Source of the DNA: a virus
DNA length: 14,368 bases
Virus genome (UHGV): UHGV-0068104
Reading direction: 5' to 3' (one strand)
The position numbers and the translations under genes are program-made. The notes under the pieces were generated by a model, which saw only the letters and a list, made by a program, of their open reading frames with translations, did not search any database and had not been told where the DNA came from. Positions 3,324-3,955 of this stretch are shown piece after piece. Position 1 is the stretch's first letter, and each line of letters starts with the position of its first letter.

Positions 3324-3955
3324 TGGCAAACGCAAAACTGCGTTATCTGAAAAATCAAAGCATTACGAGAACTGAGCAACGGCTATCCATTACAAAGCCC
3401 ATCTACGGGTGGGCTTGATAATGAAACCGGAATTTATTCTTGGCAACCAGTTACGGCAGTACCACGAAACAACCCAAGCCAGTAAGTGGGGAAATAACAC
3501 TGGCAGCCACTGAAAGATGAAGCTCCTGCCTTAAGGCAAAAAAGATTCTTTGTGGTGGCGGACTGATGGAAAGACATCGGTTATTGCAGAGACCATTCAA
3601 TGAGTGGTCTCGACAATGGCTTATACCCTACACGGGATAACTTAACTGATATCCCTTTTAAAGGATAAAGGTATTCAAGCCTGACACATCATGCGCTGTA
3701 TCGTCGCCGTATTCCTGCATTAACAGAGACCGCAGCCCGACGGGGAACTCCTCTGCGCGAGTGTGCGGAAATAATCAAAAACGATACACACCGGGGTTTA
3801 CCGCGTTAACGGAGCGCGGCGTTGTCCCCTCATGGTCGCTGGTCCGGTGCGATGGTGGAAGAAACCGGACGATGTGTTACCTCGCAAGCTCTGTTATGTC
3901 ATGTGTCTGATTTGTGATTTAAGTCGGATAATTGTCGTTGCCATTAAACAGAGGA

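What the first reader, a model, noticed from the sequence alone, without database searches (positions are those of the whole stretch)
3324..3955. About 630 bp with no ORF of 60 codons or more between the KilA-N and TonB-like genes
Neither strand has an ORF of 60 codons or more across 3324-3831. The stretch holds two back-to-back mini-ORFs (3323-3418, 31 aa, start overlapping the KilA-N stop as TGATG; 3421-3513, 30 aa), a perfect 12-bp palindrome TGCCTTAAGGCA (3527-3538) followed by an A-run, and a GC-rich block around 3700-3850 that, from memory, resembles conserved non-coding sequence near the right end of lambda. It could be a decayed gene, a small RNA locus, or the recombination seam where morons are swapped.
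Basis: partly seen in the sequence, partly recalled or inferred. Interest (0 to 1): 0.4.

Follow-up and report, generated by a model that had tools for sequence, protein, structure and literature searches.

The report
Conserved structured non-coding spacer, lambdoid phages
The gene-free stretch is not a dead gene: it is a chain of small, highly conserved non-coding modules that fold as RNA hairpins in the sense of the phage late operon, occur unannotated in lambda, P22, HK97, 434 and Shiga-toxin phages, and sit exactly where neighbouring accessory genes get swapped.

Summary
3380-3831 is the longest ORF-free run in the window, but about 36% of shuffles also lack a 60-codon ORF. The 12-bp palindrome is a non-conserved single-base variant.

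The gap is a mosaic of conserved non-coding modules:
- two copies of a ~44-nt interrupted hairpin "R" (3387-3424 and 3579-3621);
- conserved leaders M1 (3425-3578) and M2 (3622-3669);
- a GC-rich multi-hairpin block, M3 (3691-3806) and M4 (3807-3878);
- the promoter region of the TonB-like accessory gene (moron) (3879-4018).

The modules occur in about 63% of complete E. coli genomes and in HK97, P22, HK620, lambda, 434, DLP12 and Stx phages, almost always unannotated. No reading frame is conserved. Covariation and a strong plus-strand G·U excess support RNA structure in the late-operon sense for R, M3 and the M4 terminal hairpin. M1 and M2 are about 10-fold less diverse than third codon positions of the adjacent orf80.

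R abuts at least 11 unrelated upstream genes and pairs with either downstream module, and recombinant single-R forms exist. So it is a recombination joint.

Function is inferred: cis-acting punctuation or insulator hairpins of the late transcript. There is no Rfam match and no published expression evidence. Interest is moderate.

The parts
3323..3418 (+). Mini-ORF1 (31 aa). Its ATG overlaps the KilA-N stop (TGATG) and it runs through the 5' half of R1. It travels only with this KilA-N allele. Coding status is unresolved but unsupported.
   Evidence: No Pfam or PHROG hit. The left 60 nt are shared by only 7-12 of 131 loci.
3387..3424 (+). R1: an interrupted hairpin. Outer stem CCATTA/TAATG(G), 2x2 internal loop CA/GA, inner stem AAGCCCATC/GGTGGGCTT, loop TACG. 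Its 5' edge is a recurrent mosaic breakpoint.
   Evidence: Covariance-model (CM) hit 3385-3426, 58.6 bits on + versus 23.3 on -. Covariation test. Breakpoints at 3384-3388 and 3421-3423.
3425..3578 (+). M1: a conserved non-coding leader (core 3453-3578). It contains mini-ORF2 (3421-3513), the non-conserved palindrome 3527-3538, a ~55-nt hairpin (GCCACU...GGUGGC) and a small hairpin ACUGAUGG...CAUCGGUU. It is absent from JLK-2012 and ev099.
   Evidence: Found in 73 of 131 loci, and in HK97, HK620, P22 and ST64T. Diversity is about 0.015, with 30 invariant nt, against 0.117 at orf80 third positions. 1-nt indels occur. Fold z-score -3.3.
3527..3538 (.). Perfect 12-bp palindrome TGCCTTAAGGCA. It is a lineage-specific single-base variant of TGCCTTATGGCA and has no significance of its own.
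3579..3621 (+). R2: the second copy of the R hairpin, with a different stem family. Outer GGTTATTG/CAATGGCT, inner GAGACCATTC/GAGTGGTCTC, loop AAT.
   Evidence: CM hit, 62.1 bits on + versus 18.5 on -. Compensatory differences from R1 and from two further stem families.
3622..3669 (+). M2: a nearly invariant leader with hairpin GGGATAAC-TTAACT-GATATCCC (3634-3655). In most phages it is followed directly by the SD+ATG of orf80/DUF2560, or of a small terminase. In the window it is followed by M3.
   Evidence: Diversity 0.012. 66 loci end homology at 3669.
3691..3806 (+). M3: a long irregular hairpin.
- P1: 3698-3704 / 3781-3787
- P2: 3710-3720 / 3763-3773
- P3: 3723-3724 / 3761-3762
- P4: 3731-3735 / 3753-3757
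- P5: 3737-3738 / 3743-3744
Homologous to lambda 46868-46981, DLP12, 434, Stx phages and Salmonella phage SPN3UB. It contains a non-conserved 10-codon mini-ORF (3691-3723).
3807..3878 (+). M4: a middle hairpin (CCGCG 3801-3805 / CGCGG 3815-3819, replaced by other hairpins in other lineages) and a terminal hairpin GTCCGGT 3842-3848 / ACCGGAC 3864-3870, with an invariant AAGAA (3859-3863) in the loop.
   Evidence: 5 of 7 pairs change on both sides. Homology ends at 3869-3878 in 33 loci.
3879..4018 (+). Upstream region of the TonB_C lipoprotein moron: a promoter-like ATGACC-16-TAGAAT (3959-3986) and a 17-bp palindrome (3982-3998). It travels with the TonB-like gene, not with the conserved modules. 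ORF 3832-4083 is spurious.
   Evidence: (a 5-nt indel in L022 breaks the ORF).

Best explanation
The stretch is a conserved, non-coding, modular spacer of the lambdoid late operon. It lies between the lysis cassette with its post-lysis accessory genes and the packaging genes.

Shown:
- It consists of two copies of a ~44-nt interrupted hairpin (R1, R2). Each heads a strongly conserved leader (M1, M2).
- These are followed by a GC-rich multi-hairpin block (M3/M4) and then the promoter region of the TonB-like moron.
- No reading frame is conserved.
- The helices of R, M3 and the M4 terminal hairpin are kept by compensatory changes. G·U pairs lie almost only on the late-operon sense strand.
- The primary sequence of M1, R2 and M2 is under purifying selection.
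- The modules recur in many combinations, with breakpoints at their edges.

Inferred:
- The modules are transcribed as part of the Q-antiterminated pR' late RNA, and of moron transcripts reading the same way.
- They act there in cis as punctuation or insulator elements. Strong hairpins placed right after the stop codon of whatever gene lies upstream would give the downstream leader and gene a constant RNA context. The mechanism would be a processing or 3'-exonuclease-barrier function, possibly as an RNase III-type substrate, or control of access to the downstream start region.
- Because they are islands of near-identity between otherwise unrelated genes, they are the homology patches at which phage recombinases (Red, Erf, RecT) exchange neighbouring morons. 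This produced the window's own arrangement, KilA-N | R1-M1-R2-M2 | M3-M4 | TonB-like.
For: Distribution and lack of annotation:
- Present in 3402 of 5426 complete E. coli genomes and 303-432 phage records. These include HK97, HK620, P22, ST64T, ES18, lambda, 434, DLP12 and 933W/Sakai-type Stx phages. Mostly 'none' under the match.

Modularity:
- Breakpoints pile up at 3384-3388, 3421-3436, 3443-3453, 3578-3589, 3669, 3806 and 3869-3878.

Not coding:
-.

R hairpin:
- 98.2% of cells paired, against 28-49% when slid. 5 of 14 pairs change on both sides. There are four stem families.
- Plus strand scores 59-62 bits, minus strand 18-23.

M3:
- 97.7-98.8% paired, against 27-64% slid. 4 pairs change on both sides, including three consecutive pairs in SPN3UB. 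Only 4 of 500 shuffles reach this.
- Alifold gives -36.8 kcal/mol on plus, -19.6 on minus.

M4 terminal hairpin:
- 95.5% paired, 5 of 7 pairs change on both sides, 1 of 500 shuffles reaches this.

Strand asymmetry:
- Plus-strand G·U cells against A·C cells: 43 versus 5 in R, 59 versus 4 in M3.

Constraint:
- Diversity of M2 is 0.012, R2 0.018 and the M1 core about 0.015. The adjacent orf80 in the same 27 loci gives 0.043, 0.019 and 0.117 at codon positions 1, 2 and 3.

Joint behaviour:
- At least 11 unrelated ORF C-termini, or the Rz terminator T-run, end 2-15 nt from R. The same left gene occurs with either M1 or M2 on the right.
- JLK-2012 and ev099 carry a single hybrid R.
- The non-coding block is 93-100% identical while flanking genes are 57-85% identical.
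- Orientation always matches the late operon in annotated records.
- Red-mediated relaxed homologous recombination across this lambda/DLP12 region is shown experimentally (PMC3945230).
Against: - No transcript, processing-site or phenotype data exist for these modules.
- The only expression dataset I could check lists no Hfq peak over M3/M4 (Hfq CRAC, a UV-crosslinking method, in Sakai lysogens). That dataset is uninduced and Hfq-specific.
- The near-invariance of M1 and M2 in loops as well as stems goes beyond what hairpin maintenance needs. It points to an unidentified sequence-specific partner.
- G·T wobbles are also tolerated in single-stranded DNA, so the strand asymmetry does not strictly prove RNA.
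- In lambda-type M3 the minus strand carries a near-consensus promoter aimed at bor and a terminator-like hairpin. So part of M3's history may be minus-strand moron signals.
- Sequences are closely related, so many 'cells' in the covariation counts are not independent events.
- Both strands of the window fold better than shuffles (z -3.6 versus -3.3).
Confidence: 0.55

Rival explanations
1. Trans-acting or processed small RNA(s). One or more modules (for example M1 with its 30 invariant nucleotides, or the M4 hairpin with the invariant AAGAA loop) are released from the late transcript, or made from an unrecognised promoter, and act by base-pairing or as a protein or Hfq sponge.
For: - Base-by-base conservation of M1 and M2 exceeds structural needs.
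- The invariant A-rich loop of the M4 hairpin resembles ARN-type Hfq motifs (own knowledge).
- Lambdoid prophages are rich in sRNAs (PMC4104026; 10.64898/2026.05.13.724894).
- In Sakai Sp9/10/12 an abundant Hfq-bound RNA (EcOnc10-12) arises immediately next to M4, on the other strand.
- M1's core resembles the flanks of the Rfam family Proteo-phage-1.
Against: - No promoter-like or terminator-like site on either strand within 3560-3950.
- No Rfam family reaches threshold.
- No EcOnc peak over M3/M4 in any Sakai prophage once the 139-nt coordinate offset is corrected.
- No long-range complementarity within the window.
Confidence: 0.15
2. DNA-level (or single-stranded-DNA) elements. The R inverted repeats and the conserved flanks would be sites for a protein or a structure-specific recombination or replication activity. 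Alternatively they are leftover minus-strand promoter and terminator signals of bor/ybcV-type morons.
For: - R sits exactly at cassette-like junctions, with combinatorial partners.
- One locus has a perfect 20-bp palindrome version.
- Lambda-type M3 holds a curated minus-strand promoter (TGGACA-15-TACAAT) about 120 nt upstream of bor and a minus-strand terminator-like hairpin.
- G·T pairs are tolerated in DNA hairpins (own knowledge).
Against: - The promoter hexamers are exactly the positions that differ in window-type M3 (CGGTCT / TACGGC). Many carriers lack bor and ybcV altogether: the window, Sakai Sp5, SPN3UB.
- A duplex DNA site would not show one-strand G·U asymmetry.
- No integrase or dedicated recombinase accompanies the modules in annotated contexts.
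- Stems vary freely while pairing is kept, which is atypical for sequence-specific protein operators.
Confidence: 0.12
3. Translated mini-ORFs acting as a translational-coupling relay. R sequesters an invariant AUG (GAYAAUG) and a GUGG motif in its 3' arm. A ribosome terminating at the upstream gene's stop codon, which abuts R, melts the hairpin and re-initiates on short ORFs. These are mini-ORF2 in M1 and the 9-codon MAYTLHGIT in M2. Their translation carries ribosomes across the spacer.
For: - GA.AATG and GTGG are invariant in all R variants.
- Upstream stop codons lie 2-15 nt from R in at least 11 gene contexts, several as TAG overlapping the outer stem.
- In the window the stops and starts are chained: TGATG at 3321-3325 and TGAtaATG at 3416-3423.
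- The one variable site inside the 9-codon ORF is synonymous (CTA/CTG).
Against: - Mini-ORF2 is frameshifted or truncated in about one third of the loci that have it, and all its variable sites are non-synonymous.
- 44 loci lack its start.
- The type-c R arm (CGACAATGG) lacks the stop codons.
- No convincing Shine-Dalgarno sequence.
- orf80 has its own GGAG SD.
- No peptide family in Pfam or PHROGs.
Confidence: 0.1
4. Decayed gene(s). The stretch would be the eroded remnant of one or more protein-coding genes.
For: - Several records annotate short ORFs over parts of it: Chlobot/ev099 54 aa on the minus strand, P22 orf25, ST64T orf-118, Sakai orf48, JLK-2012 PP_49.
- The window differs from the Chlobot type by a 1-nt deletion inside the 54-aa frame.
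Against: - No homologue has a longer genuine gene here.
- Synonymous to non-synonymous ratio is 6:14, against a random expectation of 25% synonymous. Codon-position counts are 11:4:5.
- Stops or frameshifts occur in lambda and DLP12.
- The DUF2560 profile excludes the N-terminal extension.
- Conservation is higher than at second codon positions of a real neighbouring gene and is uniform across frames. That is the opposite of decay.
Confidence: 0.04

Closest known systems
Conserved 'boundary/linker' sequences at mosaic junctions of lambdoid phages, and moron borders (Susskind-Botstein modular theory; Juhala et al. 2000, cited in PMC4104026; relaxed homologous recombination, De Paepe et al. 2014, PMC3945230)
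   Same: These are short islands of high identity between unrelated genes. Breakpoints recur at their edges, partners combine freely, and recombinant (single hybrid R) forms exist.
   Different: Here the islands are not merely neutral homology. They carry helices maintained by compensatory change on one strand and are under purifying selection. That implies a function of their own.
Intercistronic RNA hairpins of polycistronic phage and bacterial mRNAs: T7 RNase III sites (R1.1 type), lambda sib and N-leader RNase III sites, REP/BIME stabiliser elements (own knowledge)
   Same: A ~18-20-bp helix interrupted by a small internal loop, placed between cistrons just after a stop codon, in the sense of a long polycistronic transcript, and repeated within the operon.
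   Different: No cleavage or stabilisation data exist. R has conserved flanks (ATTA...CA / GA...TAATG) and a conserved downstream leader, which REP and T7 sites lack. It is restricted to one interval of the genome, with 1-2 copies.
Integron attC sites
   Same: An imperfect inverted repeat at the 3' boundary of exchangeable gene cassettes. Outer arms are conserved, the centre varies, and pairing is strand-specific.
   Different: No integron integrase or core sites accompany it. Only 1-2 copies occur. It lies in a phage late operon. Exchange is adequately explained by homologous recombination.
Prophage sRNAs of lambdoid phages (AgvB, AsxR, EcOnc03, Pas sRNAs, STnc100, IsrK) and EcOnc10-12
   Same: Non-coding RNA features in moron-tolerant parts of lambdoid late regions. 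EcOnc10-12 lie in the homologous Rz-to-terminase gap of Sakai Sp9/10/12, right next to M4.
   Different: AgvB, AsxR and the Pas sRNAs lie between pR' and the lysis genes and have Rfam models that do not match here. EcOnc10-12 are on the opposite strand, in the 3'-UTR and terminator of the DUF3950 gene. That segment is absent from the window.
Rfam RF03044 Proteo-phage-1 RNA
   Same: M1's invariant core, CCCAAG...GAAAUAACAC(U/C)GGCAGCC, matches the motif's two single-stranded flanks almost base for base.
   Different: The score is 16.8 bits against a gathering score of 42. Both internal hairpins of the model are missing. No relative carries a full copy. Treat this as a lead only.

Membership tests
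Protein-coding gene or pseudogene | A reading frame preserved across homologues, with indels in multiples of three | tested here: not met
   1-nt indels occur between close relatives in M1, M3 and M4, and a 5-nt indel at 3896-3900. Mini-ORF2 is frameshifted in about one third of loci. The minus-strand ORF is shifted in the window group and carries a stop in lambda/DLP12.
Protein-coding gene or pseudogene | Excess of synonymous or third-position change | tested here: not met
   6 synonymous to 14 non-synonymous changes, against a random expectation of 25% synonymous. Codon positions 11:4:5. Diversity of M1 and M2 is at or below that of second codon positions of orf80.
Protein-coding gene or pseudogene | Homology to a protein family | tested here: not met
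   No Pfam or PHROG hit for any of six candidate products. The DUF2560 profile begins downstream of R2.
Curated RNA families (Rfam 15), including AgvB, AsxR, STnc100, IsrK, Esr41 | Covariance-model score at or above the gathering threshold | tested here: not met
   Nothing in 3300-4030 at E<=1 in the whole-window search. The best local hits are 16.8 and 16.6 bits against gathering scores of 42-45.
Proteo-phage-1 RNA (RF03044) | The two internal hairpins of the model, plus the gathering score | tested here: not met
   Model segments of 28 and 26 nt are replaced by 6+6 nt. 16.8 bits against 42. No full copy in 28 relatives searched.
Intrinsic (Rho-independent) terminator | GC-rich hairpin immediately followed by a U-tract | tested here: not met
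   The R hairpins are followed by GAUAAUGAAACC and GACAAUGGCUUAU. No terminator-like site on either strand in 3560-4030, and only a weak minus-strand one at the palindrome.
Independent sRNA gene | Own promoter, defined 3' end, and a detected transcript | tested here: not met
   No promoter-like or terminator-like sites within the modules. No Hfq-CRAC orphan peak over M3/M4 in Sakai prophages after coordinate correction. Induced-state expression could not be tested.
Conserved cis-acting structured RNA element | Helices maintained by compensatory substitutions, above controls | tested here: met
   R has 5 of 14 pairs changed on both sides and is 98% paired. M3 has 4 of 27 such pairs and is 97.7% paired. 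The M4 hairpin has 5 of 7 and is 95.5% paired. Slid controls give 25-64% paired. 0-4 of 500 shuffles reach the observed values.
Conserved cis-acting structured RNA element | Strand specificity (G·U rather than A·C) matching a known transcript direction | tested here: met
   G·U against A·C cells on the plus strand: 43 versus 5 (R) and 59 versus 4 (M3). CM scores 59-62 bits on plus against 18-23 on minus. Alifold -36.8 against -19.6. Orientation equals that of the late operon in all annotated records.
RNase III processing site or 3'-exonuclease barrier hairpin | Helix of about two turns with an internal loop, between cistrons | tested here: met
   R has 5-8 bp, a 2x2 loop and 9-10 bp, with folding energy of -17 to -27 kcal/mol. 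It starts 2-15 nt after upstream stop codons.
RNase III processing site or 3'-exonuclease barrier hairpin | Cleavage by RNase III, or stabilisation of upstream mRNA | not testable with these tools
   Needs in vitro cleavage, or end-mapping in rnc mutants against wild type.
Mosaic boundary / recombination linker of lambdoid phages | The same sequence flanked by unrelated genes in several combinations, with recombinant derivatives | tested here: met
Integron attC-like cassette site | An associated integron integrase and conserved core sites | tested here: not met
   No integrase gene in any annotated neighbourhood. The neighbours are lysis, moron and packaging genes.

The most novel reading that the evidence does not exclude
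R, M1/M2 and M3/M4 together are a dedicated 'moron-junction' system of lambdoid phages. On this reading they form a family of RNA (or single-stranded nucleic-acid) elements. They would insulate or regulate the packaging-proximal genes through a specific, still unknown partner: a processing enzyme, a phage or host RNA-binding protein, or a base-pairing RNA. They would also channel the insertion and exchange of accessory genes, making them functionally analogous to cassette sites. This would mean that lambda, P22 and HK97 carry an unrecognised class of conserved regulatory RNA in their late operons.
Probability: 0.15. Interest if true: 0.7.

Novelty: new member of a known kind. Interest (0 to 1): 0.45.

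Why it matters
These modules sit unannotated in the most intensively studied temperate phages (lambda, 434, P22, HK97, HK620, 933W/Sakai) and in about 63% of complete E. coli genomes. If they are functional RNA punctuation, they would explain two things.

First, how a late operon keeps the expression of packaging genes constant while arbitrary accessory genes are inserted upstream. Second, why mosaic junctions in this interval are so sharply localised.

In practice they give annotators a reason to stop calling spurious ORFs here: 'orf25', 'orf-118', 'orf48', the 54-aa minus-strand ORF, and the over-extended DUF2560. They also provide covariance models for a motif that is missing from Rfam.

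Tried and rejected
- Palindrome as a functional site: rejected. It is not conserved and occurs in 13% of shuffles.
- Mini-ORFs and every annotated small ORF as genes: rejected or unsupported.
- Known sRNAs (AgvB, AsxR, Pas, STnc100, IsrK): wrong position and no CM hit.
- tRNA, tmRNA and tandem repeats: none.
- cos or pac accessory site: rejected. The distance to cos varies from about 70 bp to more than 1.5 kb, and the modules occur with lambda-, HK97- and P22-type terminases.
- Fur box at 3982-3998: 13 of 19 matches, which is background level (8 such sites in the window).
- Long-range complementarity to other parts of the window: none.
- Apparent coincidence of the abundant Hfq peaks EcOnc11/12 with M3: this was an artefact of a ~139-nt coordinate offset between genome versions. 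After calibration with AgvB and EcOnc03 the peaks lie beside M4, on the opposite strand, in a segment the window lacks.
- Proteo-phage-1 membership: not met.
- Bor promoter as the reason for M3 conservation: the hexamers are lambda-type-specific and M3 persists without bor.
- Genome-contig scan for wider host range: it mostly returned lambda control-DNA contaminants. Real hosts are Escherichia species.
- Literature searches for a description of these modules found none.
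Full report
**Context.** The window is the late region of a lambdoid prophage, in this order:
- holin, lysozyme and Rz (to 2600);
- two terminator hairpins (2630-2685);
- a KilA-N gene (2802-3323, PF04383);
- the gap;
- a TonB_C lipoprotein gene (ATG 4019 to 4345, PF03544);
- a DUF3950/YlcI-like gene on the minus strand (4477-4737);
- HNH endonuclease (4719-5084), then small and large terminase.

**Check of the observation.**
- No ORF of 60 codons or more lies within 3380-3831. 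This is the longest such run in the window, but 36% of shuffles of the stretch also lack one. The absence of an ORF is therefore only notable because phage genomes are densely coding.
- A perfect 12-bp palindrome arises in 13% of shuffles. Most relatives read TGCCTTATGGCA instead, so the palindrome has no significance.
- The true gap extends to about 4018.

**What the DNA is related to.** The stretch is widespread. It occurs in 3402 of 5426 complete E. coli genomes (up to 10 places per genome) and in 303 phage records in near-identity mode. No phage record covers 80% or more of it.

Mapping 131 loci against the window shows sharply recurrent breakpoints at 3384-3388, 3421-3436, 3443-3453, 3578-3589, 3669, 3806 and 3869-3878. 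The gap is therefore a chain of modules:

| Module | Coordinates |
|---|---|
| R1 | 3387-3424 |
| M1 | 3425-3578 |
| R2 | 3579-3621 |
| M2 | 3622-3669 |
| M3 | 3691-3806 |
| M4 | 3807-3878 |
| Segment that travels with the TonB-like gene | 3879-4018 |

- M1-M2 is present in HK97, where it is the known gap between gp73 and the HNH gene. It is also in HK620, P22, ST64T and ES18.
- M3/M4 is present in lambda (46868-46981, between bor and lambdap78), DLP12 (between borD and ybcV), 434, Stx phages of the 933W/Sakai type (between Rz or bor and the terminase gene) and Salmonella phage SPN3UB.
- Curated records leave it unannotated or place tiny ORFs on it. In every annotated record the modules have the orientation of the late operon.

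**Not coding.**
- The 118-aa 'DUF2560' annotation of P22-like phages starts at an ATG that exists only in the TTATGG variant. The Pfam profile begins at residue 43, and the real gene is the 80-aa orf80 with its own GGAG Shine-Dalgarno sequence.
- The 54-aa minus-strand ORF annotated in Chlobot and ev099 shows 6 synonymous to 14 non-synonymous changes, against a random expectation of 25% synonymous. Codon positions are 11:4:5. It is frameshifted in the window group and interrupted in lambda and DLP12.
- Mini-ORF2 is truncated or shifted in about a third of the loci that have its start, and 44 loci lack its start.
- The 10-codon ORF at 3691 is not preserved in lambda, which reads GTG CGA TGA.
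- ORF 3832-4083 is broken by a 5-nt indel.
- None of these products matches Pfam or PHROGs.

**The R hairpin.**
- Immediately upstream of M1 and of M2 lies a ~44-nt interrupted hairpin. It has an outer stem (A/G)(G)CCATTA / TAATGG(CT), a 2x2 internal loop CA/GA, an inner stem of 9-10 bp and a loop of 3-6 nt, with folding energy of -17 to -27 kcal/mol.
- Four inner-stem families keep the pairing: AAGCCCAUC/GGUGGGCUU, AAAGCCAYUC/GAGUGGCUUU, GAGRCCAUUC/GAGUGGUCUC and GCAGGCAUUC/GAGUGCCUGU. The last outer pair co-varies: AUUA·UAAU against AUUG·CAAU.
- On 28 distinct variants, 98.2% of cells pair, against 28-49% when the partner is slid. 5 of 14 pairs change on both sides.
- A covariance model finds exactly two copies in the window, at 59-62 bits on the plus strand and 18-23 on the minus. 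It finds one or two copies per related locus, always in this interval, and none in lambda or DLP12.
- R is not followed by a U-tract, so it is not an intrinsic terminator.

**R as a joint.**
- At least 11 unrelated upstream ORFs, or the T-run of the Rz terminator, end 2-15 nt from R's 5' arm. Several end with a TAG that overlaps the outer stem. The same upstream gene is found with either right-hand module.
- JLK-2012 and ev099 lack 3424-3582 and carry a single hybrid R, with an R1-type stem joined to M2.
- Downstream of M2 come different genes: orf80/DUF2560 in most loci, a small terminase in some, and M3 in the window lineage.
- Against a P22-like phage the window is 63-85% identical in the N-terminal half of KilA-N but 97-100% identical from 3140 to 3620. 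Against LH50-c the non-coding block is 93-100% identical and the TonB-like gene 57-78%.
- This is the signature of exchange by homologous recombination at conserved patches. Such exchange was demonstrated experimentally for lambda and DLP12 across this general region (PMC3945230).

**M3/M4.**
- On the plus strand M3 folds into a long irregular hairpin (P1-P5). The consensus fold is -36.8 kcal/mol on plus and -19.6 on minus.
- With lambda, DLP12, 434, Sakai, PA29 and SPN3UB included, 97.7% of cells pair, against 27-62% when slid. Four pairs change on both sides, which 4 of 500 shuffles reach. SPN3UB replaces three consecutive P2 pairs (UCC/GGA by CAU/AUG), and lambda flips C-G to G-C.
- The terminal hairpin of M4 (GUCCGGU/ACCGGAC) has 5 of 7 pairs changed on both sides: CCUGU/ACAGG in one lineage and UCUCGAU/AUCGAGA in SPN3UB. 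It carries an invariant AAGAA in its loop.
- The middle hairpin is replaced by different hairpins in different lineages.
- G·U cells on the plus strand outnumber A·C cells 59 to 4 in M3 and 43 to 5 in R. This points to a single-stranded molecule of late-operon polarity, most simply the late mRNA.

**Constraint against recent spread.** In 27 loci that carry M1-R2-M2-orf80 contiguously, nucleotide diversity is as follows:

| Region | Diversity |
|---|---|
| M2 | 0.012 |
| R2 | 0.018 |
| M1 core | about 0.015 (30 consecutive invariant positions) |
| orf80, codon position 1 | 0.043 |
| orf80, codon position 2 | 0.019 |
| orf80, codon position 3 | 0.117 |

The non-coding modules are therefore under purifying selection about as strong as at second codon positions. 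This exceeds what stem maintenance needs and suggests a sequence-specific partner that I could not identify.

**Comparison with known elements.**
- No Rfam family matches.
- The lambdoid anti-sRNAs and Pas sRNAs lie between pR' and the lysis genes, not here.
- A sub-threshold alignment shows that M1's invariant core matches the two flanks of the Proteo-phage-1 motif, but the motif's hairpins are missing and no relative has a full copy. This is a lead only.
- In Sakai prophages Sp9, Sp10 and Sp12 the homologous gap is Rz | M3-M4 | about 170 nt | DUF3950(-). The abundant Hfq-bound RNAs EcOnc10-12 at first seemed to coincide with M3. Calibration with AgvB and EcOnc03 then revealed a ~139-nt offset between genome versions. 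The peaks actually lie just beyond M4 on the opposite strand, at the terminator of the DUF3950 gene, in a segment the window lacks.
- No listed Hfq peak falls on M3/M4. This fits modules that are expressed only with the late operon.
- In lambda-type M3 the minus strand carries a curated near-consensus promoter aimed at bor. Its hexamers are exactly the positions that differ in the window's M3, and many carriers lack bor. So this does not explain the conservation.

**Most likely mechanism.**
- Shown: a conserved, non-coding, modular set of plus-strand structured elements that behave as recombination joints.
- Inferred: they are part of the Q-antiterminated late transcript and act in cis as punctuation or insulators. 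R is placed directly after whatever stop codon lies upstream. It would define a constant 5' context for the conserved leader and the next gene. This could work by RNase III-type processing or an exonuclease barrier, or by gating access to the start region. The identity of these elements between phages makes them the places where morons are exchanged.
- I put about 0.55 on this composite. Within it, the non-coding, structured and joint part is well supported. The processing or insulation step is the weakest link.
- The rivals, with their tests, are given separately: a trans-acting or processed sRNA, DNA or single-stranded-DNA sites, a translational-coupling relay through the mini-ORFs, and a decayed gene.

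**Novelty and interest.**
- The phenomenon belongs to known kinds: conserved boundary sequences of mosaic phages, and intercistronic RNA hairpins.
- These particular elements appear undescribed in what I could search and are absent from Rfam, even though they sit in lambda, P22 and HK97.
- A specialist would find this mildly surprising, and it is directly testable. Interest is 0.45.

Noticed in passing
window 4477-4737 (-); lambda NC_001416 48169-48303: The minus-strand ORF is a DUF3950/YlcI-YnfO family gene (PF13132). Lambda's reference record has an unannotated relative (84% nucleotide identity) close to its right end.
   Followed up: partly
L132-L165 (genome-contig scan): Assemblies of unrelated taxa (Pseudomonas, Cohnella, Flavobacterium, Kitasatospora, Vibrio and others) contain ~48.5-kb or ~3.5-kb low-coverage contigs that match lambda. 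These are almost certainly sequencing control-DNA contamination.
   Followed up: no
L004 2710-3066; P22 BK000583 orf80: The 118-aa 'DUF2560 family protein' annotations in P22-like phages are over-extended at the N-terminus through hairpin R2. The Pfam profile starts at residue 43, and the 80-aa orf80 start has a GGAG Shine-Dalgarno sequence.
   Followed up: yes
window about 3130, inside KilA-N (2802-3323): There is a recombination breakpoint within the KilA-N gene. Identity to a P22-like phage jumps from 63-85% to 100% for the C-terminal third and the following non-coding block.
   Followed up: partly
window 3959-3998: A promoter-like ATGACC-16-TAGAAT (TG-extended) has a 17-bp palindrome over its -10, upstream of the TonB_C lipoprotein gene. 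This is a candidate operator. Its Fur-box resemblance (13 of 19) is no better than 8 other sites in the window.
   Followed up: partly
Sakai NC_002695.2 1946958-1947006 (Sp10), and equivalents in Sp9 and Sp12: The abundant Hfq-bound RNAs EcOnc10-12 of Tree et al. 2014 map to the 3'-UTR and terminator of the DUF3950 (ylcI-like) gene, once a ~139-nt coordinate offset between genome versions is corrected. At face value the published coordinates would wrongly place them on M3.
   Followed up: yes
window 3473-3508 (M1 core): The invariant sequence CCCAAG...GAAAUAACACUGGCAGCC matches the single-stranded flanks of Rfam Proteo-phage-1 (RF03044) nearly base for base. The model's two hairpins are absent and the score is 16.8 bits against a gathering score of 42.
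   Followed up: partly
HK629 NC_019711 45479-45505 (-); lambda 46882-46908: Lambda-type M3 carries a curated minus-strand promoter (TGGACA-15-TACAAT) about 120 nt upstream of bor. The hexamers are replaced in the window's M3 and in phage 434.
   Followed up: partly
window 11333-11452 and 11495-11614: A 120-nt direct repeat (93% identity, 162-nt spacing) lies inside the structural-gene region.
   Followed up: no
window 2630-2685: Two consecutive terminator-type hairpins with T-runs lie directly after Rz and before the KilA-N moron. HK544's record annotates the first as a rho-independent terminator.
   Followed up: no
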